The notes beneath the pieces are model-generated. The model was not told the DNA's origin. It saw only the letters and a list, made by a program, of their open reading frames with translations, and did not search any database. Shown piece by piece: positions 18,446 through 59,155 of a stretch of DNA of 64,000 nucleotides. The position numbers were made by a program, and so were the translations under genes. The stretch lies in contig OZ244922.1 of NCBI GenBank assembly GCA_965221905.1, positions 2,148,845-2,212,844 on the forward strand, given 5' to 3'. Each line of letters begins with the position of its first letter. The first letter of the stretch is position 1. The stretch is from Chloroflexota bacterium (GTDB lineage: Bacteria > Chloroflexota > UBA11872 > VXOZ01).

Positions 18446-18703
18446 AGAGCGAAGCTCACACCATTAACTCCACGTGAGGGCTCTGTCTGGGAAACGCGCA
18501 CCCACGGCATGCCTGGCGCAGCCTGGCCAGGCGGCCATATGTGTCTAAGAGGAAGTGGGGACACGACCGGCAACTCTGCCGCTAGAGTTTTGTTCGCTCG
18601 TCGCTAGATTCGTACGAAGCCAGCAACCAACGTCTGTCGGGATCTACCGCATAGGAATGCAAGCGATAGCGGACGACAGGGGAGCGCACGATTGGCGAGT
18701 TCT

Positions 18704-19456: not shown

Positions 19457-19480
19457 TGTGCTATCCGTCCCCTCTTGCCG

Positions 19481-24534: not shown

Positions 24535-24540
24535 AGGAGA

Positions 24541-26799: not shown

Positions 26800-26820
26800 C
26801 TTCAGCGGGGAGAAACGGCG

Positions 26821-28933: not shown

Positions 28934-28992
28934 GAAATCCTGCTCGCTGCAACTACTGTCTTTCGTGCGGGCGATGAAGGAGATTAATCCCA

Positions 28993-30360
28993 ATGCATGA
29001 GCGCCCCCGGCTCACGCCAATTCAGATAAACCGTGACCTGCTTCGGTCGGTGTTTGAAACGCCGCTGATTTTCTATGTGCTGCTGCTGCTCTTATTGGGT
29101 TTGGTGGGACTCGGCGTGATTGCAGCCACGTTGCTGGTTACGTATGGCTTGGGCGTCACCGGCCTCAATCATCCGGTCTTCTGGGGCTTCTTCATCATCA
29201 ACTTCGTGTTCTGGGTCGGTATCAGCCACGCCGGCACGATGATCTCTGCAATTTTACGGCTTACGTCAGCGGAATGGCGCCGTCCGGTAGTGCGCGCTGC
29301 TGAAGTAATGACGGTATTCTCCCTGATGACTGCTGCGCTCTTCGTGGTGCTCCATACGGGGCGTCCCTGGCGCACGCTCTACTGGGCATTCCCGTATGAC
29401 TTTGTGCGCGGCATATGGCCCGACGTGCGTTCCCCGCTCGTCTGGGACCCCAGCGCCATTTTCACGTACCTTACCGGTAGTATTCTCTTTGTCTACGCCG
29501 CACTGATTCCGGACCTCGCCTTGGCGCGCGATAAGACGACCGGTTGGCGGCGCATGCTCTATGGAGTTCTCTGTCTTGGCTGGCGCGGCAACGCTCGGCA
29601 GTGGAAGCTGCTTAATGCTACGGGCTTGTTGCTCTCTGCACTGATCCTACCGGTGTTTGTATCCGTGCACAGTATTGTGTCTTGGGACTTTGGCATGTCC
29701 CTCGTACCTGGTTGGCACGTGCACATCTTTGCCCCGTATTTCGTTGTAGGAGCCGTGCTATCCGGTGTAGCAGCCGTGATCGCCTTGATGGCGGTAATGC
29801 GCTCTCTATTCCGCCTCCACGACTACATTCGCCCCGAACACTTCGACATGATCGGGCGTCTACTCATAGTTGTTGCTTTGGCCTGGGCGTACTTCTACTT
29901 TATTGATGTAGTCTTCGCGCTATTGAGTAAAGAAGAAGCGGAATACCAGGTGATGAAGCTGCGGCTCTCGCCGCCCTATCTCTACCTGTTCCTCTTGATG
30001 ATCACGTGTAACGTATTCCTGCCGGTGCCAATCTGGATGTTTAGGAGATTCCGCAGAAATATCGGCATCATGGTTTTGACAGCCATCGTCGTCAACATTG
30101 GCATGTGGCTGGAGAGGTTCCTGATCATTGTTCCAACCTTGCAACGACGGCATCCCGATGCGTTCGCCTGGGGAAATTACTCGGCTAGCCTCGTCGAAAT
30201 AGCTCTGGTGATCTTCTCGTTCGCCAATGTATGTCTGTTATTGTTACTTTTTTCCAAGATATTTCCCGTTATTCCCATATGGGAGGAAAAAGAGGGTCAT
30301 ATCTGGAAGCGCGAATTCCGTATTGGCAAACTCCGCTTGCCTGCAATAGTGAGAGAATAG
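28993..30360 (+). CDS. Second NrfD-family integral membrane subunit (ActF-like)
   Basis: A polytopic membrane protein paralogous to the preceding one. Confidence 0.6.
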   Translation: MHERPRLTPIQINRDLLRSVFETPLIFYVLLLLLLGLVGLGVIAATLLVTYGLGVTGLNHPVFWGFFIINFVFWVGISHAGTMISAILRLTSAEWRRPVVRAAEVMTVFSLMTAALFVVLHTGRPWRTLYWAFPYDFVRGIWPDVRSPLVWDPSAIFTYLTGSILFVYAALIPDLALARDKTTGWRRMLYGVLCLGWRGNARQWKLLNATGLLLSALILPVFVSVHSIVSWDFGMSLVPGWHVHIFAPYFVVGAVLSGVAAVIALMAVMRSLFRLHDYIRPEHFDMIGRLLIVVALAWAYFYFIDVVFALLSKEEAEYQVMKLRLSPPYLYLFLLMITCNVFLPVPIWMFRRFRRNIGIMVLTAIVVNIGMWLERFLIIVPTLQRRHPDAFAWGNYSASLVEIALVIFSFANVCLLLLLFSKIFPVIPIWEEKEGHIWKREFRIGKLRLPAIVRE

Positions 30361-30370
30361 GGAGGCAACC

Positions 30371-30883
30371 ATGCCCAGTGTTCTGGGGTTATTTCAAACG
30401 GCAGACACCGCGGCAGCAGCTGCGGACCGACTACAGGCCTCAGGGTTCGGCCCAACTGACTATGAGGTACTAACAGGCGCACCCTATCCGGAAGGTGCCT
30501 TTGGCGAAGATTCCGGAGACCATCGTCTATTCATATTCCCTCTTGGCGGCGCCATAATAGGGTTCGCGGTCGGCTTGATGGTGACGGCCGGCACGCAGCT
30601 ATCTTTTCCGCTCGTTACGGCGGGAAAGCCCATTCTTGGCATACCGCCAATGTTCATCATCATGTATGAAGGCACGATGCTCGGGGCGCTCATCTTTACT
30701 ATCATGGGCGTCATATTCGAGTCTCGTCTCCCAAATCTCACAAATGATCTCTATGATTCGCGGATAACTGAAGGCTATGTGGGGTTGGTGGTTCGTTGCG
30801 ATGACGATGCGCAGGCAGATACCGCCCAGTCAACCCTCACCGATGCAGGCGCTGAAGAAGTGAAGCAGCAAGGACGGAGCTAA
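30371..30883 (+). CDS. actD: ActD-like subunit of alternative complex III (DUF3341-like)
   Basis: N-terminal MPSVLGLFQTADTAAAAADRLQASGF followed by a two-TM region, the typical ActD pattern. Confidence 0.6.
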   Translation: MPSVLGLFQTADTAAAAADRLQASGFGPTDYEVLTGAPYPEGAFGEDSGDHRLFIFPLGGAIIGFAVGLMVTAGTQLSFPLVTAGKPILGIPPMFIIMYEGTMLGALIFTIMGVIFESRLPNLTNDLYDSRITEGYVGLVVRCDDDAQADTAQSTLTDAGAEEVKQQGRS

Positions 30884-30888
30884 CCCGA

Positions 30889-31452
30889 ATGCGAGACCGG
30901 CTACATTCACATGGCCTGTTCCGCTCAATGCGTGACCTTGTGCGCCGGCGCTGGTTGGTACTGGGTATTCTACTTGGCATAATGCTTGCCGCTTTATTGA
31001 CCTCGTGCAATGGCTACGTCTGGGACATCTTTCCCGAGATGCACTACCAGGCGTCCTACCGGCTGCAGGAACCGCCACGGCGAATGCCTCCCACCGATTC
31101 TGTGCCGATAACAGGAAAAGCGCGCGAGTACAGATTCGCGGAAGCCGCAGAGGTAGCCAATCCCCTCACAAGCACGCCTGAAGGCATAGAAGCCGGCAAC
31201 CGGTTGTTCCAGACCAATTGCAAACACTGTCACGGTGCGGAAGGCCTAGGAGACGGTCCGGCGGGCGCCTACTTCGATCCGCCGCCGCAACCGATGCAGG
31301 GCGAGCGCGTGACCGATCGCAGTGATGGTGAGATCTACTGGATCCTAGCGAACGGCTCGGGCAACATGCCCAAGTTTGGCCACCTGTTGGCCCCTGAAGA
31401 ACGCTGGGAGCTTATCCTCTTCATACGGTCATTGCAGCAAGAAGACGGTTAA
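30889..31452 (+). CDS. actE: Monoheme cytochrome c subunit (ActE-like), membrane/lipid-anchored
   Basis: A single CKHCH heme motif, an N-terminal hydrophobic anchor with LLTSC, and a second axial Met context. Confidence 0.65.
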   Translation: MRDRLHSHGLFRSMRDLVRRRWLVLGILLGIMLAALLTSCNGYVWDIFPEMHYQASYRLQEPPRRMPPTDSVPITGKAREYRFAEAAEVANPLTSTPEGIEAGNRLFQTNCKHCHGAEGLGDGPAGAYFDPPPQPMQGERVTDRSDGEIYWILANGSGNMPKFGHLLAPEERWELILFIRSLQQEDG

Positions 31453-32047: not shown

Positions 32048-32887
32048 ATGGCTGAATACGCCGACTCAAATGTCCTCGTTTCGACAGACTGGGTAGCCCA
32101 GCACGGCAACGACGCGAATGTACGGCTCGTAGAGGTAGACGTGGATACCACCGCCTATGAGACGGGTCACATCGCCGGTGCAGTGGATTGGGGCTGGCAG
32201 TCCGATCTGAACGATCCCGTCCGGCGCGACCTTATCGGCAAGGAAGACCTGGAGCGGCTCCTGGGCCAGAGCGGAATCACTGCCGATACCACAGTGGTTC
32301 TCTATGGCGACAACAACAATTGGTTTGCTGCTTTCGCTCATTGGATCCTCAAGATATACGGCCACAAAGATGCGCGCTTGATGAATGGGGGCCGTGTGAA
32401 GTGGCTGGAGGAAGGCCGTCCAGCCTCATCCGATATTCCCCATATCGCGGCAACCACCTACACTGCGCAAGACCCGGACGCCGCCCTGCGCGCCTACCAA
32501 GGCGACGTGCAAGACCGCTTGGGCAATCCAAGCGTCGGTATGGTTGACGTGCGTTCACCGCAGGAATTCACTGGGGAAATTCTGGCGCCCCCAGGCTTGC
32601 CGGAAACCGCCCAGCGCGGCGGCCACATTCCCGGCGCCGCCAATATCCCGTGGGCTTCCGCCGTCGCGGAAGACGGCACCTTCAAGTCTGCCGACGAACT
32701 GAGCGAGATTTATGGCGGCAAAGGCATCGTTCCCGACAAGGAGATCGTTACCTACTGCCGGATTGGCGAACGCTCGTCGCACACCTGGTTCGTGCTCAAG
32801 TATCTGCTCGGCTACCCGGACGTGCGCAACTATGATGGCTCCTGGACCGAATGGGGCAGCATGATTGGCGTGCCTATAGAGAAGTAG
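32048..32887 (+). CDS. Two-domain rhodanese (thiosulfate/3-mercaptopyruvate sulfurtransferase family)
   Basis: Tandem rhodanese domains with an active-site loop CRIGERSSH in the C-terminal domain. Confidence 0.8.
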   Translation: MAEYADSNVLVSTDWVAQHGNDANVRLVEVDVDTTAYETGHIAGAVDWGWQSDLNDPVRRDLIGKEDLERLLGQSGITADTTVVLYGDNNNWFAAFAHWILKIYGHKDARLMNGGRVKWLEEGRPASSDIPHIAATTYTAQDPDAALRAYQGDVQDRLGNPSVGMVDVRSPQEFTGEILAPPGLPETAQRGGHIPGAANIPWASAVAEDGTFKSADELSEIYGGKGIVPDKEIVTYCRIGERSSHTWFVLKYLLGYPDVRNYDGSWTEWGSMIGVPIEK

Positions 32888-32990
32888 CAAACACTGGCGC
32901 TCTAGACGAGTTAAGGCATGACACAACCTTGTACGGTCGACTGGAAAGTACATCGAAAAGTCTTCGACGTAGTAGAGGGAGAACACAACG

Positions 32991-34187
32991 ATGAGATCGA
33001 TTAAGTGCTCCGCAGTAACCGCGTCGGCGAAATGGCGCCGGCTCTTGGCCCCATTGCTTGCCATCCTTGCTGTAGGTTTGTTGGCTTCCGCCTGTGGCAC
33101 GTACGTCATTCAGCCGGAGGCGCCCGTTTCCACTGCCAAATACGAAGTCTGGGCCATGGACCAGACCAACAACATAATCCACATTATCAATCCGCAGCTT
33201 GAAGTAGTGGAGACAGTCGATCTTTCTGAAGCGGGCTTGGAAAGAACACACTGGATCAACTTCACGAGCGACTCCAAATACGCCTGGATAGCCAGCACAG
33301 TCTCCGGCAACACGGCCGTCATCAGGGCGGAAGACCGGCAGGTGATCGCCACGTTCGACACGGGTCCTGCGAGTCATGCCGCGGACATTTACCCGGACGA
33401 TAGCGGCGTTCTCGTCTCCGTGATCAAAAGCGGTGAGCTGGTTGAGGTTGTAGCGGACCACGCTACGGAGACGTTCTCCATAGGCCGCATCCTTAAGATT
33501 GCGGAGGACCCGCTCGTGAAGGAACGGGCAGACGAGTTCCCCTCTGCGAATCCGATTTCATCTGCGTTCACCCGAGACGGGCGCTACGCATATGTGACGC
33601 TGGGTCCTGCCCTTGCCGATGGCGGGCTGGTCATACTGGATTTGGAGACTTTCACCTTGGTCAAGGCGTACTCGCCGGAAGAGGTCAAGGTGAATCTGAT
33701 GAGCGTCCTCTCGCCCGATGGCACAAAGATGTACGTCACCGGGGGCTCGCGGGACGCGAAGAGCCTCTTCTACGTATTTGATACCGCAACGCATGAGGTA
33801 GTCGCCAAGGACGCAACCCGTGGCGCCGAGGCGCACGGCATGGCGCTGACGCCCGACGGCTCCGAAATTTGGATTACCAACCGCTGGACCGGCAACGTCG
33901 GCATCATTAGCACCGAGTTCGACGAATTCATCGAGCGGATACCTTTTGTCGGGGAAGCGCCGGACCTCCTGGTCTTCTCACCTGACGGTGTCTTCGCATT
34001 CATCCTTTTGCGGGGTGGCGGACCTACGGATGCCGGCGCTATGTCCGGCGCCGGCGAACTGCCCGCAGTGGTGGTTGTAGCGGTGGAGACCAGGCAGGTC
34101 ATGGACATCCTGATTCAAGGTGAGCTTACGGATGAAGGCGAACTGCCGGCGCTGGACTACCACGGCATAGCAATCAGGCAGTTGTAA
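32991..34187 (+). CDS. Beta-propeller repeat protein (YVTN/YncE-like), putative lipoprotein
   Basis: Signal peptide with lipobox-like LLASAC. Repeated blade-like segments (YVT, DGSEIWITN, and similar). Confidence 0.5.
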   Translation: MRSIKCSAVTASAKWRRLLAPLLAILAVGLLASACGTYVIQPEAPVSTAKYEVWAMDQTNNIIHIINPQLEVVETVDLSEAGLERTHWINFTSDSKYAWIASTVSGNTAVIRAEDRQVIATFDTGPASHAADIYPDDSGVLVSVIKSGELVEVVADHATETFSIGRILKIAEDPLVKERADEFPSANPISSAFTRDGRYAYVTLGPALADGGLVILDLETFTLVKAYSPEEVKVNLMSVLSPDGTKMYVTGGSRDAKSLFYVFDTATHEVVAKDATRGAEAHGMALTPDGSEIWITNRWTGNVGIISTEFDEFIERIPFVGEAPDLLVFSPDGVFAFILLRGGGPTDAGAMSGAGELPAVVVVAVETRQVMDILIQGELTDEGELPALDYHGIAIRQL

Positions 34188-39757: not shown

Positions 39758-41041
39758 ATGCAGGTAGATCTCGCATACGGCCGCACTGGACTCAAGGTTT
39801 CGCTTCCGGATGAGCGCGTGGATATTGTAGAGCCGGTCAATCTCTCTGGTGTCGCAGAGTCCTCCGCGGCTCTACGCGACGCACTGCGCAATCCAATTGG
39901 AACAAAACCGCTGTGTGAGATCGCTGGAGCGGAGGATACGGTCGCAATCGTGTTTTGCGACATTACGCGTCCGGCGCCGAATCAACTTATGATACCGGCA
40001 ATTCTGGCCGAACTCACGCACGTGCCCCGAGAAAACATCGTGCTCATCAATGCTACCGGCATGCATCGTCCCAACACCGAGGCTGAATTGTGCGAAATGT
40101 TGGGCGAGGATATTGTGGCCAAGTACCGCATTGTCAACCATGATTCAACGGATGCGTCCCAGTTGCGTTTCCTTGGAGAGACATCCTTTGGCGGCCCGGT
40201 GTGGATCAACACGCACTACCTCGACGCCTCGGTTCGCATACTCACCGGCTTCATCGAGCCGCACTTCTTTGCGGGCTTCAGTGGGGGCGCAAAGCTAATC
40301 TTGCCCGGCATTGCCGGGGCTGAATCGGTGATGCATAACCACAACGCGGAAATGATCGGTCATCCCAAAGCAACCTGGGGGCATCTGGAAGACAATCCCA
40401 TCCACTGCGAGCAGCGCGAGGCGGCCGCCCTATGCCCGCCCGATCTCAGCCTCAACGTGACGATCAACAAACGCAAAGAGATCACGGGCGTCTTTGCCGG
40501 CGAAATGGTCCAGGCACATGAAGCCGGTTGCGCGTTTGCGCGTCGCTCTGTCATGCGACCGGTAGCAGAGCCATACGACATCGTGATTACGACGAATAGC
40601 GGGTATCCCCTCGACCTAAACCTCTACCAAGCCGTGAAAGGCATGTCGGCTGCGTATCAGGTGGTGAAACAGGGAGGCGCAATCGTCATTGCGGCTGAAT
40701 GTGTGGAAGGCATAGGTCACGGGCATTTCGAGGACCTACTGCAGGAGCGGGAATCTCCCACCGCTTTGCTGGATCTGATCAACAGCCCAGGATTCTCCCG
40801 ATTCGATCAATGGGAAGCCCAGATCCTGGCGCAGATTCTCCTGAAGGCTGAAGTGCATCTATTTGCGGAAACTCTCTCAGACCGAGCCATACGCGATGCG
40901 CATCTAATCCCATGCCGCTCGATAGAAGAAACAGTGGCCGCGCTGCAAGAGAGATACGGGCCAAGTGCGAGCATTTGTGTGCTGCCTATGGGGCCTCTGA
41001 CCATACCCTACGTTGCGGAACCGGCAGTGGCTGCGGTCTAG
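39758..41041 (+). CDS. larA: Lactate racemase-like protein (LarA family, nickel-pincer cofactor-dependent)
   Basis: LarA N-terminal (DUF2088-like) and C-terminal domain pattern, including NATGMHRPNT and conserved His/Lys positions. GAAAGAGGG ribosome-binding site upstream. Confidence 0.65.
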   Translation: MQVDLAYGRTGLKVSLPDERVDIVEPVNLSGVAESSAALRDALRNPIGTKPLCEIAGAEDTVAIVFCDITRPAPNQLMIPAILAELTHVPRENIVLINATGMHRPNTEAELCEMLGEDIVAKYRIVNHDSTDASQLRFLGETSFGGPVWINTHYLDASVRILTGFIEPHFFAGFSGGAKLILPGIAGAESVMHNHNAEMIGHPKATWGHLEDNPIHCEQREAAALCPPDLSLNVTINKRKEITGVFAGEMVQAHEAGCAFARRSVMRPVAEPYDIVITTNSGYPLDLNLYQAVKGMSAAYQVVKQGGAIVIAAECVEGIGHGHFEDLLQERESPTALLDLINSPGFSRFDQWEAQILAQILLKAEVHLFAETLSDRAIRDAHLIPCRSIEETVAALQERYGPSASICVLPMGPLTIPYVAEPAVAAV

Positions 41042-51445: not shown

Positions 51446-53803
51446 GTGAGTCTGCCGACATTCCACGTAGCTCACAAGTCTGTGCCGTCTTCCGTGCCTG
51501 GGCAGACACCGTTCCTTACTTGCGAGAGCAAGTGTAACTTGACGGTACCTGGAGTGAAGACACTCAGGGCATCAAGAGTTGCCACCCGAGCACTCAGGCA
51601 AGTCTTTTGCATCTTGGGTCTGCTCCTCGCAGGAAGCGTTATACTAGCATCCTGCGGCGACAGAGATAAAGAGGCCGAGACTCCATCCGCCGCGATCCCG
51701 CCATCTGCCGCCAATCTAACCGAGGCATCTACTCTCCTCTCATCACTGCCTTGCTTTACCGACCTCACCGCAGCGCACAAGGCTGGTCCCGTTGCAAGTC
51801 CAACACCGGAGACCATTAGGATCCAGATGCTCGAGCGTCCATACCGCATAGTCCCCAATGATATCGTGCTCAAGCGGGGTCGCAGCTATCGGCTCATCAT
51901 ACAGGCCAACGAGGAGTGGCAGCACTTCGCCTCAGGCGTACTAACCTATGACATTAACCTTCCCCCTCACGGCCAAGCGGAGGTTCTCCTGCAGCCACAG
52001 CAACTCGGCGTGTTTCCAATCTCAAATCATCGTCACATTCCGGAGAGCATCCTTAGAAGCACCATAACCGTAGTACCAGCGAGCATTGAAGTCTCCACAT
52101 GGAATCCACTCTGTGCGGAACTCTCCGTTGAATCTCCACCGACCGGCGCTGACTTGAGCACACCATTCGTTATCCAAGGCTCCGTGATCCATCCCGGCGA
52201 CAGTAGTCTTCGCGTAACGCGCATAGAGGCCTGGAGTAACGATATTCTGGTGGGTAGTACCGCAAGTGAGCAGCTTATTCCTCGCGGCAATAGCAGCGAA
52301 TTCTTCCTCACCGTCCTAGACCTGCCTCCAGGCGACCACTCCCTACTGCTCAAGGCTTCTCTTCAGAACGGCGCTCTCGCAGCTACTGCGACCATGCAAA
52401 TCTCTACACCCGCAGAAAGCCCACCTACTGCTTTGCTGCCTGGCTATCGTGGCAACATCGATCTTCCTGCCGAAGGCGGCTTTCTCAGTCTTCCCGTTAC
52501 AATTCAAGGCTGGGTCGTCATACCGGGAAGCAAGAGTGGCACCGGTGTTGGATCTGTTGAAATCTGGAACGGACCACGTGAAACGGGTACGTTTCTCACT
52601 GAAGCAGTCTACGGCACGTATCGCCCTGATGTAGCCGAAGCACTAGGTGACCCTAACTACTCCAGCAGCGGGTTTTACGCCGAAGTCTTCGACCTACCTG
52701 CCGGCCCCGTTGAGCTCCACCTTTACGTACGCGACCGCGAAGCCGGTGAGTACGTGTCCCCCCGATTTCGCCAATCTTCGCTTACCCGCAGCGTCTCCCT
52801 CGCTGAAGGCAAAGTCACCGATGCAGACTGGCCTGTGGCCCTGGCAGCCGCTCCAGACGGCAGGCTCTTCTATGCTGAACTCCTCACCGGCAACATACGC
52901 ATTTGGCGCGACGGTCAGCTTCTCCCGGTTCCCTTCGGCTCTATCGTTGACGTCTCAAATCATGGAGAGTCCGGTCTCCTTGGCCTTGCCCTTCATCCAG
53001 AATTCCCGCAAGAGCCGTATGTCTATGCCATGTACACGGTAGATTATCCGGAGACGGGCTTCCCTCTTATCCAGCGCGTCGTTCGTTTTCGCGACGATAA
53101 CGGAACCGGCAGGGATTACACTGTGATCATCGAAAACCTCCCCGCAACAACAACGGGTCTTCACAACGGCGGTCGCATTGCCTTTGGGCCGGATGGCAAG
53201 CTTTATCTCACAATTGGCGATACTGACATACCGGACCTAGCCCAAGACCCCACAAATCTGGCAGGCTCCATCCTGCGATTCAATCCCGATGGCACCATCC
53301 CCAACGATAATCCCATTCCTGGTTCTCCTATTTACGCCATGGGATTGCGAAATGTCTTTGGTCTTGCATTCCAGCCGGAGAGCGGATACTTGTTCGCGAC
53401 TGAGAACGGGCCGGGCGGATTTGACGAGGTAAATAGGATTCAAGCCGGCCATAACTACGGCTGGCCGGGCTATATGGGTGTAACCAATGAGAAGGGTTTT
53501 ACCGATCCAATCATAGTCTTTGGCACGTGGCCGAATCCGACCTACGGCCCCACCGGGGCGGCCTTCGCACCTGGAAATCCGGAACTCTTCCTCTTCTGCG
53601 CCTTCCACGTGCCCTCGCTCCATGCGCTGCAATTGGGTGGTCCTGACTACAGCACGGTAGAACGCGAACTGGTGTTGTCGAAGCACTGTATTCTGGACGC
53701 AGCGGCCTCTGACGACGGTTGGATCTACTACAGCACTACCTCCGCCATCTTCAGAGCACGGCTTGATGACCTGTTGCAACTTCACGAGTATGAGGCACAA
53801 TGA
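51446..53803 (+). CDS. Lipoprotein, paralog 1 of 3: cupredoxin-like domain, Ig-like region and PQQ-type sugar dehydrogenase (SGDH) beta-propeller
   Basis: Lipobox ILASCGD. The N-terminal PTPETIRIQMLERPYRIVPNDIVL... is cupredoxin-like and has no Cys. The C-terminal AWPVALAAAPDGRLFYAELLTGNIRI...HNGGRIAFGPDG...NYGWP matches glucose/sorbosone dehydrogenase. Confidence 0.65.
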   Translation: MSLPTFHVAHKSVPSSVPGQTPFLTCESKCNLTVPGVKTLRASRVATRALRQVFCILGLLLAGSVILASCGDRDKEAETPSAAIPPSAANLTEASTLLSSLPCFTDLTAAHKAGPVASPTPETIRIQMLERPYRIVPNDIVLKRGRSYRLIIQANEEWQHFASGVLTYDINLPPHGQAEVLLQPQQLGVFPISNHRHIPESILRSTITVVPASIEVSTWNPLCAELSVESPPTGADLSTPFVIQGSVIHPGDSSLRVTRIEAWSNDILVGSTASEQLIPRGNSSEFFLTVLDLPPGDHSLLLKASLQNGALAATATMQISTPAESPPTALLPGYRGNIDLPAEGGFLSLPVTIQGWVVIPGSKSGTGVGSVEIWNGPRETGTFLTEAVYGTYRPDVAEALGDPNYSSSGFYAEVFDLPAGPVELHLYVRDREAGEYVSPRFRQSSLTRSVSLAEGKVTDADWPVALAAAPDGRLFYAELLTGNIRIWRDGQLLPVPFGSIVDVSNHGESGLLGLALHPEFPQEPYVYAMYTVDYPETGFPLIQRVVRFRDDNGTGRDYTVIIENLPATTTGLHNGGRIAFGPDGKLYLTIGDTDIPDLAQDPTNLAGSILRFNPDGTIPNDNPIPGSPIYAMGLRNVFGLAFQPESGYLFATENGPGGFDEVNRIQAGHNYGWPGYMGVTNEKGFTDPIIVFGTWPNPTYGPTGAAFAPGNPELFLFCAFHVPSLHALQLGGPDYSTVERELVLSKHCILDAAASDDGWIYYSTTSAIFRARLDDLLQLHEYEAQ

Positions 53804-54082
53804 GTTACTGTGGTGGCAAGCCAACGATACGTCTTCATTCGCCAGGCAAAAGGGCAAAGTGCCGGGCAATTTGGGGAAGGTGAAGTGCTCTAATTCTTGT
53901 CCTTAGTCAGACACACTCTCTACAACGTGAATAAGCGCCTGTAGACACAGGCTCTGTTTCAAAGTCATTAGAGTTGGCGAAGTGCCGAATTATCGCAATT
54001 GCAGGATCACAGAATGTCGCACCTTTCGCAATTGAGTTGCACAGATGTGACTGATCAAGATAAGTAAGGAGAACCTAGCAAG

Positions 54083-56347
54083 TTGCTGGTGGAGGAACGC
54101 GGTGGCTACTCTCACACGGTGAATTCTTACACTTACATCCTTAGCATGATTGTCTTAGGGTCGATCCTGTTGGCGTCATGTGGCGACGGTGGGGAAAAAA
54201 TCGCTGCGCCCACAGCGTTTCTTCCTTCGCCAGAACCGGATGCTACACGTCTACCCAGCCAGGCTCCGTTTGCACCCCTCCCGCCGCTATTGCCATGCCA
54301 CATTGAGCTTGTTGAAGCGGAAAAGGCTGAACCCATTGTTAGCCCCACGCCAGAGACAATCAGACTGCAAGTGCTTGATCGTCCTTACCGAATAGTTCCT
54401 AACGACATCGTCCTCATTCGTAATCGTAGCTATCGACTAATCTTGCAAGCGCACAACGATTGGCTCCAATTTTCCGTAGGCATCTTGAGCCACGACCTTC
54501 TCATACCACCAAACGGAGAAGCCGAGACAATTGTGCAACCCAAAGTCCTAGGCATCTATCCAATCTCGAATGTTCGTCACCTACCTGAAACCGACTTGGC
54601 AAGCACCATTACGGTGGTTCCTGAAGGCGCATCCGTGTCAACGTGGCATCCGTATTGCGCCGAACTGTCCGTTCTAGCTCCACCGCCAGACGCCACTGTG
54701 AGTGCGCCATTCGTCATTCAGGGTTCAGTCGTGGAACCCAGCGTTGGCGATCTTCGCGTTACGCGTATCGAGGCCTGGAGCGATGGCAGGAAAGTAGGCG
54801 AAACGTCAAGAGAGCACTTCATATCCCAAGACTCATACGAAGACTTCCTCCTTACCATTCCATACTTGCCTCCAGGCACCCACTCACTGCTCCTCCAGGC
54901 TTATCTTCAAAACGGAAGTCTGGCCGTTACGGCATCTTTGCCACTCTCCATACTCGCTGAACCTGCCTCTACCACTCCATCCCAAGGTTACCGTGGCAGC
55001 ATAGACATCCCTGACGAGAACCGTCTCCTTAGCCTTCCTGTCACAGTTCAAGGCTGGGCAGTCATTCCTGGCAGTAGGAACGGCACTGGTGTCGGTTCGG
55101 TCGAAGTCTGGAACGGGCCGCGCGAGACCGGTTCATTTCTCACCGAAGCTATTTACGGCACGTATCGCCCTGATGTAGTTCAAGTCCTCGGCGATCCCCG
55201 TTTTGCGAGCAGCGGATTCTACGCTAGAATTCCCAATCTCTCTGCAGGTCCCGCCAACCTCCATATCTACATCCGTGACCGCGAATCCGGCGACTACGTG
55301 TCCCCCCACCTCTTTCAATCGCCTTTAGTACGCAGTTTCTCCCTAGCAGAGGGCAAAGTCACCGATGCGGCCTGGCCTGTGGCCCTTGCGGCCGCCCCAG
55401 ACGGCCGGCTCTTCTTTGCCGAGCTACTCACCGGCAATATTCGCATCCTGCAAGGTGATAAAATTCTCCCAGAACCCTTTGCTACACTTAGGGATGTATC
55501 GAACTATTGGGAGTCTGGCCTTATGGGGCTTGCCCTCCATCCAAACTTCCCACAAGAACCATACGTCTACGCAATGTACGTCGTGGAAAACCCTGAGACA
55601 GGTCTGCCCAGCGGCCAGCGCGTCGTGCGCTTTCGTGATGTCAACAATGCCGGTCAAGACTACACAGTGATCCTCGACAATCTGCCCTCTACGACCACCA
55701 ATAGACACAATGGCGGACGTATTGCCATAGGTCCCGACGGCAACCTCTATCTCTCTATCGGTGACATTGACATTCCTAGCCTCGCTCAAGACACCACGAG
55801 CCCCGTTGGTTCTATTCTTCGCATAAGTGCTGATGGCAGCATTCCCGATGACAATCCTATTTCCGGTTCACTTGTCTACGCCAGTGGTTTGCGCAATGTA
55901 TTTGGCCTCGCCTTCCAACCAGAGACTGGATATCTCTTTGCGACCGACAACGGCCCGGGCGGTTTCGATGAAGTGAACAAGATCGAAGCCGGCCACAACT
56001 ACGGCTGGCCTCTTCATATGGGCGTAACACGTTCAGAGGGTTATACCGACCCTATCGCCGTTTATGGTAACTGGCCTGAGAGACCCATCGGGCCTACCGG
56101 CGTGACCTTTAGTCCTGAACGACCGGACTTGCTGCTCTTTTGCGCTTACCACGACTTCTTCCTGCGCGCGGTGCGATTGAGCGGTCCAGAGTTCGAGTCC
56201 GCTGAGAGTACCACGGTACTGTCGAGAAACTGCGCGCTTGACGTGACTTACAGCGCTGACGGTTGGCTCTACTACAGCACAGTGTCCGCAATCTTCCGAG
56301 CGCGGCTCGATGACCTCGTGCGACTCCAAGAGGCAGACGCCAAGTGA
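54083..56347 (+). CDS. Lipoprotein, paralog 2 of 3: cupredoxin-like domain, Ig-like region and PQQ-type sugar dehydrogenase (SGDH) beta-propeller
   Basis: Same architecture. AAGGAGA ribosome-binding site before TTG 54083. Lipobox ILLASCGD. Confidence 0.65.
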   Translation: MLVEERGGYSHTVNSYTYILSMIVLGSILLASCGDGGEKIAAPTAFLPSPEPDATRLPSQAPFAPLPPLLPCHIELVEAEKAEPIVSPTPETIRLQVLDRPYRIVPNDIVLIRNRSYRLILQAHNDWLQFSVGILSHDLLIPPNGEAETIVQPKVLGIYPISNVRHLPETDLASTITVVPEGASVSTWHPYCAELSVLAPPPDATVSAPFVIQGSVVEPSVGDLRVTRIEAWSDGRKVGETSREHFISQDSYEDFLLTIPYLPPGTHSLLLQAYLQNGSLAVTASLPLSILAEPASTTPSQGYRGSIDIPDENRLLSLPVTVQGWAVIPGSRNGTGVGSVEVWNGPRETGSFLTEAIYGTYRPDVVQVLGDPRFASSGFYARIPNLSAGPANLHIYIRDRESGDYVSPHLFQSPLVRSFSLAEGKVTDAAWPVALAAAPDGRLFFAELLTGNIRILQGDKILPEPFATLRDVSNYWESGLMGLALHPNFPQEPYVYAMYVVENPETGLPSGQRVVRFRDVNNAGQDYTVILDNLPSTTTNRHNGGRIAIGPDGNLYLSIGDIDIPSLAQDTTSPVGSILRISADGSIPDDNPISGSLVYASGLRNVFGLAFQPETGYLFATDNGPGGFDEVNKIEAGHNYGWPLHMGVTRSEGYTDPIAVYGNWPERPIGPTGVTFSPERPDLLLFCAYHDFFLRAVRLSGPEFESAESTTVLSRNCALDVTYSADGWLYYSTVSAIFRARLDDLVRLQEADAK

Positions 56348-56572
56348 CCAGAGGCATGTGGGAGAATACTGCCATACCGTCCACCGAGAGTCTTTACAGA
56401 GCATCGGATCAAAAGATTTCAAGAAGCTTTGGGTCTTGTGGTACTCGCCGCTTGACAAATCTTCTTCAATTGAGAAGGAATGGCGAGTTGGAGGAAAGCG
56501 CCGGGCGCAGCGGAAGCAGCCAAGAGGGTGGTCCGGAAAGTACCTTGAGCAATATCCATCACTCTGCTTGGC

Positions 56573-58906
56573 GTGAAGAGAAAATTAGTGAGTAGAATAC
56601 GCGAAAAGAATGAGGAGCAAGCAATGGTTGAAGCAGAAGTCGCAAGAAGCGACTTACGATGCTGGTTGCGGCCCTGGCTCGCTTTTCTTCTCTGCTGCAT
56701 GTTAGTGGCCGTAACGATTCTCTTGGCGTCCTGCGGAGACGACCAAGAAGACTCTGAATCAGCGTCGTCGCCCCGGGCCTCAGTAGCAGGAGAAGCTACT
56801 GCCACGCCCATTGAGCAGTTTTTTGCGTGCTATATACACTTGAATTCGGCAAGTGTAGGTGAACCGTTGGTCACTCCAACCCCAGAGACAATCAGGATTC
56901 AGATGCTCGAGCGTCCTTACCGCATTATTCCTAACGACATTGTCCTCATACAAAACCGACCGTATCGCCTAATCATCCAGGCTGGCGAGGAGTGGCACCA
57001 GTTTGCCACGGAAGTCTTGAGCCAAGACGTATTGCTGCCACCAGGTGGCGAAGCGGAGATCCTTGTTCAACCACAGTTACTTGGCATATTCCCAATCCAT
57101 AACAACCGCCGCATTCAAGAAAGCTTACTGCCAAGCACAATCACGGTAGTACCCGAGGGAATTGAGCCTTCCACGTGGTACCCTTTTTGTGCCGAGTTCT
57201 CCGTGCATTCTCCGCCGCCCGATGCAAGCCTGAGTACACCGTTTGTCATTGAAGGTACTGTTGGGCCAGTAATACTGCAACCAACCATAATGGAGCCGGT
57301 TGGTCAGTTTCTCTTTGTCTCTCGTATTGAAGCGTGGAACAACGGGCGAATTGTTGGTACTGCCACAAGTGAGCAATTTAGGTCCCGCGGCCTCGACAGT
57401 GACTTCTACATTACCATTCCGAACCTGCCTCCTGGCACCCACATTTTACACCTCCAAGCTTCCCTTCAGAACGGCTCCATTGCTGCAACGGCAACTCTCC
57501 CCCTTGTGATTCCGGTAGACACATCGAGTGGGTCCCTCCTCCCAGGCTATCGTGGCAACATCGATCTCCCAATCGACAACGCGTTTCTTGATCTTCCTAT
57601 CACCATCCAGGGCTGGGTGGTCAACCCCGGCAGTGAAGACGGCACAGGCGTTGGTTCCGTAGAAATCTGGAACGGCCCTCGCGAGAGCGGTCAATTCCTC
57701 ACGGAGGCCGTTTACGGCACGTACCGCCCTGATGTAGCAGAATCACTGGACGATCCCACCTACGCCAGCAGCGGCTTCATCGCTCAACTCTCCAATGTGC
57801 CCGCCGGCCCTGTCAACCTCCACCTATACGTCCGTGACCGCGAGTCAGGTGATTATGTATCGCCGCGTTTCCGACAGTCGCCACTAATGCGTAGCGTTTC
57901 CCTGGCGGAGGGTAAAGTCGCCGATGCGGCCTGGCCTGTGGCCCTGGCTGCCGCTCCGGACGGGAGGCTCTTCTACGCTGAACTCCTCACCGGCAACATC
58001 CGTATTGTGAAAGACGGCCAAGTCCTACCGAAACCCTTCGCGACCCTCGAAAACGTCTCGAATTTCCGGGAGTCCGGCTTCATGGGCCTTGCTCTTCACC
58101 CGGACTTTGCCACTACCCCCTATGTCTATGCCATGTACGTCGTGGACAATCCCAGTACTGGCATCCCCAGCGGCCAGCGCGTTGTCCGCTTCCGCGACGT
58201 AGATGATATCGGCCAGGAATACACCGTGATTATCGACAACCTTCCCGCGCTAACGATCTCCTTCCATAATGGTGGGCGCATTGCTTTCGGCCCCGATGGG
58301 ATGCTTTATGTCTCCATCGGCGACACCGGCGAAGGCGAGCTTGCTCAGGACCCCAAGAGACTTGAGGGCTCCATTCTGCGCTACAATCCCGATGGCAGCA
58401 TCCCAAGCGACAATCCCATCCCAGGTTCTCCGGTCTATGCCATCGGTTTGCGCAATGTCTTTGGTCTCGCCTTCCAACCTGAGACCGGATTCCTCTACGC
58501 TACAGACAACGGCCCCGGCGGCTTCGACGAAGTAAACAAGATCGAAGCCGGTCTAAATTACGGGTGGCCGGGTCACATGGGGGTGGACAGCCCGGAAGGT
58601 TATACTGATCCAGTTGCAGTCTACGGCAACTGGCCCGAAACACCCATCGGGCCTACCGGTGCGACCTTTAGTCCTGAGCAACCGGACTTGCTGCTGTTCT
58701 GCGCTTATCACGGCTTTTTCCTACGCGCTGTGCGATTGAACGGTCCAGAATACGCAACAGCGCAAAGCACGACCGTGCTATCGAACAATTGCGCACTCGA
58801 CGTGACCTACAGCAGTGACGGTTGGCTGTATTACAGCACCATTTCTGAAATCTATCGTGCGCGACTGGAAGACCTCTTGCGCCTGCGTGAGGAGAATGCT
58901 CAATGA
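56573..58906 (+). CDS. Lipoprotein, paralog 3 of 3: cupredoxin-like domain, Ig-like region and PQQ-type sugar dehydrogenase (SGDH) beta-propeller
   Basis: Same architecture. The start may be ATG 56624 (GAGGAG ribosome-binding site) rather than GTG 56573. Lipobox ILLASCGD. Confidence 0.65.
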   Translation: MKRKLVSRIREKNEEQAMVEAEVARSDLRCWLRPWLAFLLCCMLVAVTILLASCGDDQEDSESASSPRASVAGEATATPIEQFFACYIHLNSASVGEPLVTPTPETIRIQMLERPYRIIPNDIVLIQNRPYRLIIQAGEEWHQFATEVLSQDVLLPPGGEAEILVQPQLLGIFPIHNNRRIQESLLPSTITVVPEGIEPSTWYPFCAEFSVHSPPPDASLSTPFVIEGTVGPVILQPTIMEPVGQFLFVSRIEAWNNGRIVGTATSEQFRSRGLDSDFYITIPNLPPGTHILHLQASLQNGSIAATATLPLVIPVDTSSGSLLPGYRGNIDLPIDNAFLDLPITIQGWVVNPGSEDGTGVGSVEIWNGPRESGQFLTEAVYGTYRPDVAESLDDPTYASSGFIAQLSNVPAGPVNLHLYVRDRESGDYVSPRFRQSPLMRSVSLAEGKVADAAWPVALAAAPDGRLFYAELLTGNIRIVKDGQVLPKPFATLENVSNFRESGFMGLALHPDFATTPYVYAMYVVDNPSTGIPSGQRVVRFRDVDDIGQEYTVIIDNLPALTISFHNGGRIAFGPDGMLYVSIGDTGEGELAQDPKRLEGSILRYNPDGSIPSDNPIPGSPVYAIGLRNVFGLAFQPETGFLYATDNGPGGFDEVNKIEAGLNYGWPGHMGVDSPEGYTDPVAVYGNWPETPIGPTGATFSPEQPDLLLFCAYHGFFLRAVRLNGPEYATAQSTTVLSNNCALDVTYSSDGWLYYSTISEIYRARLEDLLRLREENAQ

Positions 58907-59155
58907 ACGTCCTTAGAGCACAATGAGTGCTACGTCTCTTCTCGCGAGACTGCGGAAAACATCGAATCCTCTGCGACACATGGCAAGTCTGAGACCTAGT
59001 TATGAGACGCTCTGCTGCTAGCTGCTGGGCTGGCAGTGCGGACATCTTCCCGTAGACGACCTGTCCTTTGGCAAAACCAATGCAGGCAATCGAGTACTCG
59101 CTTATGATGGGTGAAGTTGATTGATCCCCGTATTCGACGATGGAGGCACAATTCC

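What the first reader, a model, noticed from the sequence alone, without database searches (positions are those of the whole stretch)
51446..58906. Three tandem paralogous lipoproteins fusing a Cys-less cupredoxin-like domain to a PQQ-type sugar dehydrogenase beta-propeller
Three consecutive genes (785, 754 and 777 aa) share the same architecture. Each has a lipobox signal (…LASCGD) and a cupredoxin-like domain that lacks the Cys/His/Met type-1 copper ligands, followed by Ig-like beta-sandwich segments and a C-terminal soluble glucose/sorbosone dehydrogenase-like propeller. Their propeller halves retain about 85% nucleotide identity, pointing to recent duplication or gene conversion, while the N-terminal halves diverge. 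A cupredoxin-like module fused to an SGDH propeller, in triplicate, suggests a family of extracytoplasmic quinoprotein dehydrogenases with differing substrate or partner specificity. They may deliver electrons to the nearby cytochrome/ACIII machinery. I do not recognise this fusion as a characterised family.
Basis: partly seen in the sequence, partly recalled or inferred. Interest (0 to 1): 0.5.

Follow-up and report, generated by a model that had tools for sequence, protein, structure and literature searches.

The report
Tandem lipoprotein sugar-dehydrogenase-like propeller genes
Three neighbouring genes of an uncultured Chloroflexota bacterium encode membrane-anchored surface proteins that join a copper-less "blue-copper-like" domain and two Ig-like domains to a sugar-dehydrogenase-type propeller with an altered cofactor pocket. 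They form an uncharacterised, lineage-restricted variant of a well-known enzyme family, not a new kind of system.

Summary
The three ORFs exist exactly as described: 51446-53803, 54083-56347 and 56573-58906, all on the + strand. Each has a lipobox (L-A-S-C), a disordered linker, a cupredoxin-fold domain without the copper-binding Cys, two Ig-like domains, and a Pfam GSDH six-bladed propeller.

The propeller halves are 68-73% identical in nucleotides, not 85%, and the duplication is old, with third-codon-position identity of 43-46% and separate orthologues in sister genomes. The ACIII operon lies about 20 kb away and is not linked to the array.

The propellers keep the catalytic His, the Arg-Asn pair and the Gly-Pro Ca2+ site. 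The Lys/Arg/Arg clamp that holds the PQQ carboxylates is replaced by His/Cys/Leu, with an invariant Cys pair.

A sister Chloroflexi family has the same altered pocket, and 41 of its 55 clusters carry a canonical type-1 copper motif in a C-terminal cupredoxin domain. This argues that the clade is redox-active.

The array varies from 3 to 5 copies in five related Chloroflexota species at one syntenic slot, and all three window copies are under purifying selection.

Most likely these are extracytoplasmic, lipid-anchored quinoprotein-type dehydrogenases with a non-redox cupredoxin module. I rate this a new variant of a known kind, of moderate interest.

The parts
51446..53803 (+). Paralogue A (785 aa from the first GTG; the true start may be GTG 51554, which gives a 33-aa signal peptide)
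   Evidence: ORF. GSDH E 7.7e-60. Start candidates. AF2 model pLDDT 80.7, pTM 0.71.
51644..51655 (+). Lipobox L67-A-S-C70 of A. Cys70 is the predicted lipidated first residue of the mature protein.
   Evidence: Sequence. Cys is conserved in 51/52 family members and the following Gly in 50/52. Predicted helix 42-68 is followed by a disordered stretch 69-95.
51755..52111 (+). D1 of A (aa 104-222): cupredoxin-fold domain without copper ligands, bracketed by the invariant C103 and C223
52118..52408 (+). D2 of A (aa 225-321): Ig-like beta-sandwich, Big_7-like; among the most variable parts of the family
   Evidence: All-beta in the AF2 model. Big_7 PF17957 hits in 6/52 members. Column entropy 1.66 bits.
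52445..52801 (+). D3 of A (aa 334-452): Ig-like domain of a widespread repeated type
   Evidence: Exhaustive phmmer gave 972 hits, mostly as 3-7 repeats in large multi-domain proteins such as subtilases and BNR/sortilin-type proteins.
52805..53803 (+). Six-bladed GSDH/Asd-type propeller of A (aa 454-785)
   Evidence: Pfam GSDH. phmmer against 3a9g, E 1.3e-52. Foldseek target-normalised TM 0.82-0.84 to 3a9g and 2ism.
53162..53164 (+). Codon of H573 in A, equivalent to the general base His144 of sGDH
   Evidence: Lies in the HNGGR motif aligned to solved enzymes. Invariant, 52/52.
53348..53353 (+). Codons of R635-N636 in A, equivalent to sGDH R228/N229, which bind the quinone oxygens
   Evidence: Alignments. 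R in 52/52 and N in 49/52 members.
53597..53599 (+). Codon of C718 in A, the first Cys of the invariant propeller Cys pair; H721, three residues later, replaces the K377-equivalent Lys
   Evidence: Profile alignment to 2g8s and 3a9g. C in 52/52 family members and 55/55 sister-family members.
53687..53695 (+). Codons of C748-I-L750 in A, replacing the R-x-R PQQ-carboxylate clamp (sGDH R406/R408; YliI 'RIRDV')
   Evidence: alignments. C748 in 52/52 and L750 in 49/52 members.
54083..56347 (+). Paralogue B (754 aa; TTG or GTG start preceded by AAGGAG)
   Evidence: Protein identity 62% to A and 66% to C.
54170..54181 (+). Lipobox L30-A-S-C33 of B
54299..54655 (+). D1 of B (aa 73-191), cupredoxin-like; ligand positions L/N/H
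   Evidence: Alignment. Ligand table.
55349..56347 (+). GSDH propeller of B (aa 423-754)
   Evidence: Pfam E 1.2e-56. Key residues present.
56573..58906 (+). Paralogue C (777 aa from the first GTG; the likely start is ATG 56624, preceded by GAGGAG)
56723..56734 (+). Lipobox L51-A-S-C54 of C
56831..57187 (+). D1 of C (aa 87-205), cupredoxin-like; ligand positions H/N/R
57908..58906 (+). GSDH propeller of C (aa 446-777)
   Evidence: Pfam E 7.3e-56. Key residues present.
58885..59136 (.). Indel junction: 252 bp here stand in place of 2.8 kb in the closest relative (L001), which holds a fourth paralogue
   Evidence: megablast colinearity breaks at 58884 and 59137. The fourth copy lies in L001 at 17780-20014.

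Best explanation
The three genes are members of a copy-number-variable tandem array of 3 to 5 copies. The array sits in one syntenic slot in a small clade of uncultured Chloroflexota.

Each protein is exported and lipid-anchored through the lipobox Cys to the outer face of the cytoplasmic membrane (inferred from sequence). It is held away from the membrane by a disordered linker of about 30 residues and three beta-sandwich domains (D1-D3).

D1 is a cupredoxin fold that lacks a type-1 copper site. It is kept under strong purifying selection. I therefore infer that it acts as a structural or docking module, not as an electron carrier.

The C-terminal six-bladed propeller is an Asd/sGDH-type active site. 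The general-base His, the Arg-Asn pair that polarises the quinone carbonyls, and the Gly-Pro backbone Ca2+ site are all retained.

The most likely activity is oxidation of an aldose or another sugar-like alcohol or hemiacetal at the cell surface, using PQQ or a closely related quinone. Electrons would be handed to a separate soluble or anchored carrier, a cupredoxin or a c-type cytochrome.

The cofactor must be held differently from solved enzymes. The Lys/Arg/Arg carboxylate clamp is replaced by His/Cys/Leu, and an invariant Cys pair probably forms a disulfide across the pocket floor. The disulfide is inferred; I had no coordinates to check it.

Paralogues differ mostly in the linker, D1 and D2, so they probably differ in partner, localisation or polymer binding more than in chemistry.

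Shown: architecture, folds, residue conservation, array evolution, selection. Inferred: lipidation, disulfides, PQQ use, substrate class, electron acceptor.
For: - Architecture and folds.
- Catalytic residues are invariant or nearly so in 52 family members (H573, D592 and R635 52/52; N636 49/52; G655 50/52; P656 51/52) and present in A, B and C.
- The closest solved relatives are genuine PQQ enzymes: PaeAsd 3a9g at 1.3e-52, 3das PQQ-bound, YliI and sGDH.
- The closest non-family GSDH domains belong to a sister Chloroflexi family: P0070 and about 55 clusters, 42-44% identical. They share the C718/C748 pair (55/55), H721 (41/55) and L750 (35/55). In 41/55 they carry a C-terminal Cupredoxin_1 domain with a canonical C-x4-H-x4-M motif preceded by a His. 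A built-in blue-copper acceptor only makes sense if this propeller clade is redox-active.
- Purifying selection between the window and its closest relative: dN/dS is 0.15-0.18 overall, 0.09-0.10 for D1 and 0.10-0.18 for the propeller.
- Extracytoplasmic location: the lipobox is conserved in 51/52 members, and there are two invariant Cys pairs.
- Variability is concentrated in the linker, D1 and D2. Entropy is 1.6 bits there against 0.85 bits in the propeller.
- Fused or adjacent electron-acceptor domains are a known theme for six-bladed PQQ enzymes (PMC6881789; bioRxiv 10.64898/2026.07.10.737718). A Chloroflexi six-bladed enzyme was shown there to bind PQQ.
Against: - The residues that bind the three PQQ carboxylates in solved bacterial enzymes are absent.
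- The family scores 116-121 bits against the TIGR03606 cutoff of 434.55.
- It would fail the nine-residue PQQ signature of the 2026 preprint, which includes the R406-equivalent Arg.
- No PQQ biosynthesis gene, cupredoxin or dedicated cytochrome lies in the window next to the array. PQQ synthesis is mostly proteobacterial (PMC13088180), so the cofactor would have to be scavenged.
- No biochemical data exist for any member.
- I could not inspect model coordinates, so the disulfides and pocket geometry are unverified.
- Several array copies in related MAGs are split by frameshifts. This could mean relaxed constraint, or long-read assembly errors.
Confidence: 0.58

Rival explanations
1. The propeller is a non-redox Ca2+-dependent enzyme, such as a lactonase, esterase or lyase acting on a cell-surface or environmental substrate. 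It would reuse the His and Ca2+ site without PQQ.
For: - The PQQ carboxylate clamp is lost.
- Six-bladed Ca2+ propellers fused to other domains can be lactonases, for example DrSOD (PMC12362111).
- There are weak hits to SSL_N, Vgb_lyase and ScyE families.
- No PQQ genes lie in the window.
Against: - The known lactonases belong to the SGL/SMP-30 family, not to GSDH.
- The Arg-Asn pair, which in solved enzymes contacts the PQQ quinone oxygens, is conserved (R635 52/52, N636 49/52).
- The sister family with the same pocket is fused to a canonical type-1 copper domain, which points to redox chemistry.
- The best matches are all PQQ enzymes.
Confidence: 0.15
2. The proteins are non-catalytic surface binding or adhesion proteins, with an HHIP-like use of the propeller. 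The variable Ig-like and cupredoxin-like stalk would mediate strain-specific interactions.
For: - They are lipid-anchored, with a stalk of beta-sandwich domains.
- Copy number varies from 3 to 5, and some copies in relatives are split.
- Variability is concentrated in D1 and D2.
- There is a recent recombination tract over gene B.
- HHIP is a recognisable structural relative.
Against: - The active-site residues are conserved (H573, D592, R635, N654, D660, E661 and W673 in 52/52; N636 49/52), and propeller dN/dS is 0.10-0.18. A pure binding scaffold would not be expected to keep this.
- HHIP matches are far weaker: E 8e-7 by phmmer against 1e-52, and TM 0.48-0.50 against 0.82-0.84.
Confidence: 0.12
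3. The cupredoxin-like module is a functional electron-transfer partner, the paralogues arose by recent duplication or conversion, and they feed electrons to the nearby cytochrome/ACIII machinery.
For: - A cupredoxin fold is fused to a dehydrogenase-type propeller.
- An ACIII operon is present in the same 64-kb window.
- 13 of 52 family members have a His/Asp/His triad at the ligand positions. This resembles Cys-less sites that bind Cu2+ weakly, as in FtrB (PMC11966278).
Against: - None of the three window genes has that triad. A is Q/N/H, B is L/N/H and C is H/N/R. No Cys or Met ligand occurs in any of the 52 members.
- Nucleotide identity is 65-73% with saturated third positions, and each copy has distinct orthologues in sister species.
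- ACIII is 20 kb away and separated by housekeeping genes.
- ACIII oxidises quinol and reduces periplasmic carriers (PMC7439408), so it is not a sink for periplasmic dehydrogenases.
Confidence: 0.04

Closest known systems
Soluble aldose sugar dehydrogenases (Asd): Pyrobaculum aerophilum PaeAsd (3A9G/3A9H), Thermus TTHA0570 (2ISM), Streptomyces (3DAS), E. coli YliI (2G8S)
   Same: Six-bladed GSDH propeller: 35-38% identity and target-normalised TM 0.82-0.84 for the best matches (3A9G, 2ISM), 27-29% and 0.78-0.80 for 3DAS and YliI. It shares the HNGGR general-base motif, the G-x-R-N pair, the (E/D)-x-G-P...D-E-x-N Ca2+ loop and the NYGWP motif. It is extracytoplasmic.
   Different: - The Asd enzymes are single-domain and soluble, about 350 aa.
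- The R-x-R and Lys clamp for the PQQ carboxylates is replaced here by C-x-L and His, with an invariant Cys pair. Gln231 is replaced by Phe.
- This family adds a lipid anchor and three beta-sandwich domains.
Acinetobacter calcoaceticus soluble glucose dehydrogenase (sGDH/GdhB; TIGR03606 non_repeat_PQQ)
   Same: Same fold and catalytic His/Arg/Asn.
   Different: Identity is only 23-25%. The score is 116-121 bits against the TIGR03606 cutoff of 434.55. The sGDH-specific insertions and K377/R406/R408 are absent.
Sister Chloroflexi family: YVTN/YncE-like propeller + GSDH + C-terminal Cupredoxin_1 (P0070 and about 55 clusters; sources name them 'PQQ-dependent sugar dehydrogenase', 'glucose/arabinose dehydrogenase/plastocyanin'); uncharacterised
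   Same: - It holds the closest GSDH domains outside the family (42-44% identity).
- It has the same Cys pair, His721 and Leu750 pocket, and the same N-G-P-G metal loop.
- P0070 also has a lipobox.
- It is also associated with a Cupredoxin_1-type domain.
   Different: - Its cupredoxin is C-terminal and keeps the His...C-x4-H-x4-M type-1 copper ligands (41/55).
- It has an extra N-terminal seven-bladed-type propeller instead of Ig-like domains.
- An HMM of its copper domain does not detect D1 of the window genes. Common origin of the two cupredoxin modules is therefore not shown.
Cys-less cupredoxin-like domains: Cupredoxin_1 (4HCF), EfeO N-terminal domain (Cup-I), FtrB (Cup-II)
   Different: Those domains are stand-alone or attached to iron-uptake proteins, and some still bind Cu2+. 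D1 is fused to Ig-like domains and a GSDH propeller. In the three window genes it has no plausible ligand set.
Bacterial PQQ six-bladed propellers of the AA12/CcPDH type, many predicted to be lanthanide-dependent (bioRxiv 10.64898/2026.07.10.737718)
   Same: These are exported six-bladed PQQ-type propellers, widespread in soil phyla including Chloroflexi. Disulfide pairs and fused or adjacent electron carriers occur among them.
   Different: That class is defined by nine CcPDH PQQ-binding residues, including the C-terminal Arg, and by NERD...D or NGRD...D metal motifs. The window family lacks the Arg. Its metal loop is Asd-like: N-G-P-G...D-E.
Hedgehog-interacting protein (HHIP) propeller
   Same: A recognisable GSDH-superfamily propeller used without PQQ.
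   Different: It is a much weaker match, with TM 0.48-0.50. It is a eukaryotic signalling protein.

Membership tests
Pfam GSDH (PF07995) glucose/sorbosone dehydrogenase superfamily | Score above the curated gathering threshold (25 bits) | tested here: met
   190-203 bits for A, B and C. All 52 of 52 family members hit.
Pfam GSDH (PF07995) glucose/sorbosone dehydrogenase superfamily | Six-bladed beta-propeller fold | tested here: met
   AF2 model with propeller pLDDT mostly above 85. Foldseek target-normalised TM 0.82-0.84 to 3a9g and 2ism.
PQQ-dependent soluble sugar dehydrogenase (sGDH/Asd type) | General-base His (sGDH H144) and the quinone-binding Arg-Asn pair (R228/N229) | tested here: met
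   H573 and R635 are in 52/52 members and N636 in 49/52. All are present in A, B and C.
PQQ-dependent soluble sugar dehydrogenase (sGDH/Asd type) | Active-site Ca2+ loop with Gly-Pro backbone ligands (sGDH G247/P248) | tested here: met
   The motif (E/D)-N-G-P-G-G-F-D-E-V-N is present. G655 is in 50/52 and P656 in 51/52 members. This is sequence-level evidence only.
PQQ-dependent soluble sugar dehydrogenase (sGDH/Asd type) | Basic clamp for the PQQ carboxylates (sGDH K377, R406, R408; YliI 'LK' and 'RIRDV') | tested here: not met
   Replaced by H721 (37/52), C748 (52/52) and L750 (49/52). Residue roles are from PMC6881789.
PQQ-dependent soluble sugar dehydrogenase (sGDH/Asd type) | NCBIfam TIGR03606 (non_repeat_PQQ) trusted cutoff | tested here: not met
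   116-121 bits against 434.55.
PQQ-dependent soluble sugar dehydrogenase (sGDH/Asd type) | Binds PQQ and oxidises aldoses with an artificial or natural acceptor | not testable with these tools
   Needs protein biochemistry or ligand co-folding.
PQQ-dependent soluble sugar dehydrogenase (sGDH/Asd type) | Source of PQQ (pqqABCDE or an importer) in the genome | tested here: inconclusive
   None among the roughly 44 largest ORFs of the 64-kb window scanned with Pfam; a few smaller ORFs were not scanned.
Type-1 (blue) copper cupredoxin | Greek-key cupredoxin beta-sandwich | tested here: met
Type-1 (blue) copper cupredoxin | Cys thiolate ligand plus two His and an axial Met | tested here: not met
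   The Cys position is N or D in 52/52 members. The Met position is mostly Leu. The second His position is mostly I, M or L. The first His is present in 43/52 members but only in C of the window genes.
Pfam Cupredoxin_1 (PF13473) | Score at or above the gathering threshold (27 bits) | tested here: not met
   No hit for A, B or C at E<=1. 16 of 52 family members hit at E<=0.1, and one (P0020) scores exactly 27.0 bits.
Bacterial lipoprotein (Lgt/Lsp substrate) | Signal peptide ending in the lipobox [LVI][ASTVI][GAS]C | tested here: met
   L-A-S-C follows a hydrophobic helix in A, B and C. Cys is in 51/52 members. Presence of Lgt/Lsp in the genome was not tested.
ACIII-associated electron donor | Genomic linkage or conserved co-occurrence with act genes | tested here: not met
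   The act genes are at 23995-31452, 20 kb away. The array's conserved neighbours in five species are dnaN and a CN-hydrolase gene on one side and DHDPS-family, phosphodiesterase and GFO/IDH/MocA genes on the other.

The most novel reading that the evidence does not exclude
Together with the sister family that carries a true blue-copper domain, these genes define a Chloroflexota-specific clade of GSDH propellers in which the canonical PQQ carboxylate clamp has been replaced by a disulfide-braced His/Leu pocket. The clade would then either bind PQQ in a previously unseen mode or use a different quinone-type or metal cofactor. In that reading, the copper-less cupredoxin of the window family is a docking module that recruits a separate auracyanin-like carrier, which would make it a modular 'quinoprotein-cupredoxin' respiratory input not yet described in bacteria.
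Probability: 0.2. Interest if true: 0.6.

Novelty: new variant of a known kind. Interest (0 to 1): 0.35.

Why it matters
If the propellers are active, this would be a lineage-specific set of cell-surface dehydrogenases in an uncultured Chloroflexota group. They would feed electrons from external sugars or related compounds into respiration without uptake.

Their altered cofactor pocket would widen the sequence rules used to recognise six-bladed PQQ enzymes. Current signature-based inventories would miss them.

The sister family is a natural dehydrogenase-cupredoxin fusion. It offers a direct test bed for intramolecular quinone-to-copper electron transfer, and it may interest biosensor engineers who now build such fusions artificially.

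The window genes themselves remain an uncharacterised variant of a very common enzyme superfamily, so the immediate impact is modest.

Tried and rejected
- **Exhaustive phmmer and a profile search with D1.** They found only family members and N-terminal fragments, with no other architectures. D1 therefore gives no guilt-by-association clue.
- **HMM of the sister family's copper domain.** It detects neither D1 nor any other ORF in the window. hhalign gives only E 9e-4 and probability 23%. I therefore do not claim that D1 is a degenerate copy of that domain.
- **Recent gene conversion among the three window genes.** Rejected. Only the B-C C-terminal bins reach 0.75-0.81.
- **C as a C/D recombinant left by deletion of the fourth copy.** Rejected. 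C tracks L001 copy 3 along its whole length.
- **A functional operon with the flanking genes.** Not supported beyond conserved synteny. The neighbours are dnaN, a CN-hydrolase, and DHDPS-family, phosphodiesterase and GFO/IDH/MocA genes.
- **Promoter and terminator scans.** Uninformative, at or below shuffle expectation.
- **AFDB fold library.** Unavailable.
- **Oubrie et al. 1999 (PMC1171589).** Not held. Residue roles were taken from PMC6881789.
- **Cluster look-up.** It gave no names or accessions.


Full report
**Observation**

The window holds three consecutive + strand ORFs at exactly the reported coordinates: A 51446-53803 (785 aa), B 54083-56347 (754 aa) and C 56573-58906 (777 aa). They are separated by 279 and 225 bp.

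Each contains I/L-L-A-S-C-G-D after a hydrophobic stretch. The most plausible starts give signal peptides of about 30-36 residues. These starts are GTG 51554 for A, TTG 54083 or GTG 54089 after AAGGAG for B, and ATG 56624 after GAGGAG for C. The upstream extensions of A and C in the maximal ORFs are probably not translated.

Pfam finds GSDH (PF07995) in all three, with E 1e-56 to 1e-60. It finds nothing in the first ~450 residues, even at E<=1. NCBIfam TIGR03606 (sGDH-type PQQ dehydrogenase) scores only 116-121 bits against a cutoff of 434.55.

**How similar the copies are**

Protein identity is 62-66% over the whole mature length. Codon-aligned nucleotide identity is 65% in the N-terminal modules and 68-73% in the propellers. 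Third-position identity is 43-46%. Only the signal peptide and linker are unalignable.

The highest local value is 0.81, in one 150-nt bin between B and C. The copies are therefore old paralogues.

**Fold evidence**

A 52-sequence family alignment (A1) gave an AlphaFold2 model of A with mean pLDDT 80.7 and pTM 0.71. Its parts are:

| Residues of A | Feature |
|---|---|
| 42-68 | signal-peptide helix |
| 69-95 | disordered linker |
| ~104-222 | D1, all-beta |
| ~225-321 | D2, all-beta |
| ~334-452 | D3, all-beta |
| 454-772 | propeller |
| 773-784 | terminal helix |

Foldseek against the PDB puts PQQ sugar dehydrogenases first: 3a9g, 2ism, 3das, 7cdy/7cgz, sGDH and YliI. Target-normalised TM is up to 0.82-0.84. 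HHIP follows far behind.

At sequence level, the D1 family profile reaches 4hcf with E 5.9e-4 and also picks up COX2 domains. Sixteen of 52 members hit Pfam Cupredoxin_1 at E<=0.1.

D2 is Big_7-like, with hits in 6/52 members. D3 belongs to a widespread, usually repeated Ig-like domain of large secreted proteins, with 972 phmmer hits.

**Copper site**

The family motif E-W-H aligns its His with the N-terminal His ligand of 4hcf, COX2 and the sister-family domain. The other ligand positions are as follows:

| Ligand position | What the family has |
|---|---|
| Cys | Asn (32/52) or Asp (20/52) |
| second His | mostly Ile, Met or Leu |
| Met | mostly Leu |

No member has any Cys inside D1 other than the invariant C103 and C223 that bracket the domain. 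In the window genes the three informative positions are Q/N/H in A, L/N/H in B and H/N/R in C.

Thirteen of 52 relatives have His/Asp/His. This recalls the weak non-classical Cu2+ site of FtrB (PMC11966278). None of the window genes has it.

D1 is nevertheless under strong purifying selection, with dN/dS 0.09-0.10 between the window and its closest relative. It is a functional non-redox module, not a decaying relic.

**Active site of the propeller**

Alignment of the family profile to solved enzymes and column counts show what is kept:
- H573 in H-N-G-G-R, equivalent to sGDH H144, the general base;
- D592;
- R635-N636, equivalent to R228/N229;
- the (E/D)-N-G-P-G-G-F-D-E-V-N loop, equivalent to the G247/P248 Ca2+ site;
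- N-Y-G-W-P.

All of these are present in A, B and C.

The residues that bind the PQQ carboxylates in bacterial enzymes are K377, R406 and R408 (roles from PMC6881789). They are replaced by H721 (37/52), C748 (52/52) and L750 (49/52). Gln231 is replaced by invariant F638.

C748 and another invariant Cys, C718, lie in neighbouring top-face loops according to the model's strand order. I infer a disulfide there, but I could not measure it because coordinates are not exposed.

The pocket is therefore remodelled while the catalytic machinery is kept.

**The sister family**

The nearest GSDH domain outside the family, P0070 (42% identical), has the same C718/C748/H721/L750 pattern. It is also a lipoprotein and ends in a Pfam Cupredoxin_1 domain.

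Searching with it retrieved about 55 clusters. Their sources name them 'PQQ-dependent sugar dehydrogenase [Chloroflexi bacterium]' or 'glucose/arabinose dehydrogenase/plastocyanin'.

All 55 keep the Cys pair. Forty-one of 55 end in a domain with ...H-[AS]-[FL]... C-P-x-x-x-H-x-x-x-G-M, a canonical type-1 copper ligand set.

A built-in blue-copper acceptor is hard to explain unless this propeller clade does redox chemistry. This is the strongest argument that the altered pocket still holds a redox cofactor.

I do not claim that D1 derives from that domain. An HMM of the sister copper domain finds neither D1 nor anything else in the window, and hhalign gives only E 9e-4 and 23% probability.

**Distribution and array dynamics**

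About 69 clusters share the full architecture, at 55-92% identity. None carries a specific name in its source: the few names given are generic ('glucose/arabinose dehydrogenase', 'hypothetical protein'), and the cluster look-up added no others.

In one-genome-per-species GTDB data the family occurs only in five Chloroflexota MAG species. In all five the genes sit in the same slot: dnaN and a CN-hydrolase gene, then the array, then DHDPS-family, AP-type phosphodiesterase and GFO/IDH/MocA genes.

| Genome | Copies |
|---|---|
| window | 3 |
| L002 | 3 |
| L001 | 4 |
| L004 | 4 |
| L003 | 5 |
| L005 | at least 4 |

Five of the 20 copies in the relatives are split by frameshifts. Trees of the N-terminal and propeller halves resolve at least six paralogue lineages with orthologues across species.

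Compared with its closest relative (L001; dnaN 99% identical in protein), the window lacks the fourth copy. There, 252 bp (58885-59136) replace 2.8 kb.

Between these two genomes, synonymous divergence is 0.14-0.24 for flanking genes and 0.18-0.19 for A and C. It is only 0.018 for B, and the first ~300 nt of C are identical. This indicates a recent recombination tract.

Overall dN/dS is 0.15-0.18 for A and C, so the genes are functional.

Across the family, variability is concentrated in the linker, D1 and D2, at 1.6 bits. D3 is at 1.13 bits and the propeller at 0.85 bits.

**Context**

The ACIII operon is real. It comprises a multihaem ActA, ActB split into two ORFs, an NrfD-like subunit, ActD and a monohaem ActE at 23995-31452.

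It lies 20 kb upstream. Genes for rhodanese, SpoIID, tRNA synthetases, LarA, TsaD, ThiD, DnaN and others lie in between. It is not part of the conserved neighbourhood of the array.

ACIII is a quinol:electron-acceptor oxidoreductase that reduces auracyanin or cytochrome c (PMC7439408). A periplasmic dehydrogenase would donate downstream of it, not to it.

No PQQ biosynthesis gene and no canonical cupredoxin were found among the roughly 44 largest ORFs of the window that were scanned. The rest of the genome could not be examined.

**Interpretation**

The best reading (confidence about 0.58) is a family of lipid-anchored, extracytoplasmic Asd-type dehydrogenases. A linker and three beta-sandwich domains form the stalk.

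The catalytic His/Arg-Asn/Ca2+ machinery is intact. The cofactor is most likely scavenged PQQ, held by a non-canonical, probably disulfide-braced pocket. Electrons would pass to a separate carrier.

Paralogues probably differ in partner or localisation, through D1 and D2, more than in chemistry.

The rivals are:
- a non-redox Ca2+ hydrolase or lyase (0.15);
- a non-catalytic surface binder (0.12);

**Comparison with known families**

The proteins are members of Pfam GSDH. They work like Asd/sGDH in every feature I could test except the carboxylate clamp. They fail the sGDH-specific NCBIfam model. They would also fail the nine-residue PQQ signature used in a 2026 survey of about 22,000 six-bladed PQQ propellers (bioRxiv 10.64898/2026.07.10.737718). 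I therefore do not file them as established PQQ enzymes.

D1 has the cupredoxin fold but is not a blue copper protein.

Multi-domain GSDH proteins and genomic expansions of GSDH genes are common (PMC6657660).

The following appear undescribed:
- the combination of a copper-less cupredoxin, two Ig-like domains and GSDH;
- the Cys-pair pocket shared with a cupredoxin-bearing sister family;
- the variable array.

Verdict: a real feature, mostly correctly observed. It is a new variant of a known kind, with moderate interest (0.35).

Noticed in passing
window 54083-56870 (gene B, the B-C spacer and the first ~300 nt of C): This tract is nearly identical to the closest relative L001: dS is 0.018 for B and 0 for the start of C. 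Flanking genes and paralogues A and C have dS 0.14-0.24. This looks like a recent recombination or transfer tract inside the array.
   Followed up: partly
window 58885-59136 vs L001 17440-20227: The window lacks the fourth paralogue that its closest relative carries. A non-homologous 252-bp stretch replaces 2.8 kb. Copy number at this slot ranges from 3 to 5 across five species.
   Followed up: yes
L002 15128-17450; L003 7060-9415; L004 1820-4127; L005 15376-17308 and 18055-20326: Five of the 20 array copies in related MAGs are split into 2-3 reading frames, while the flanking genes are intact. These are either pseudogenes or long-read assembly errors concentrated here. Many N-terminal ~200-aa fragments of the family also exist in the protein database.
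   Followed up: partly
L010 6001-8643 (P0070) and about 55 related clusters: A sister Chloroflexi family joins a YVTN/YncE-like propeller, a GSDH propeller with the same Cys-pair pocket, and a C-terminal cupredoxin with a canonical type-1 copper motif (41/55). It is a natural dehydrogenase-blue-copper fusion that appears uncharacterised.
   Followed up: partly
window 23995-31452: An alternative complex III operon. ActB is encoded as two separate ORFs: a molybdopterin-like one at 24541-26799 and an FeS one at 26821-27624. A 459-aa ORF (27554-28933) has no Pfam hit and lies before the NrfD-like subunit, ActD and a monohaem cytochrome c.
   Followed up: partly
window 14816-18445 (+): A 1209-aa protein with four Lamin Tail Domain (PF00932) repeats, E 1.4e-39. 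It is preceded by a 619-aa protein with a weak MutL-type (PF13941) match and a 382-aa ORF with no Pfam hit.
   Followed up: no
window 32048-34187 (+): A tandem-rhodanese protein is followed by a 398-aa protein with a sub-threshold Cytochrom_D1-type propeller match. Both lie immediately downstream of the ACIII operon.
   Followed up: no
window 1965-7562 (-): A complete rod-shape cluster (MreB, MreC, a 171-aa ORF with no Pfam hit, PBP2, RodA) in this Chloroflexota genome. A LarA-type lactate racemase homologue lies at 39758-41041.
   Followed up: no
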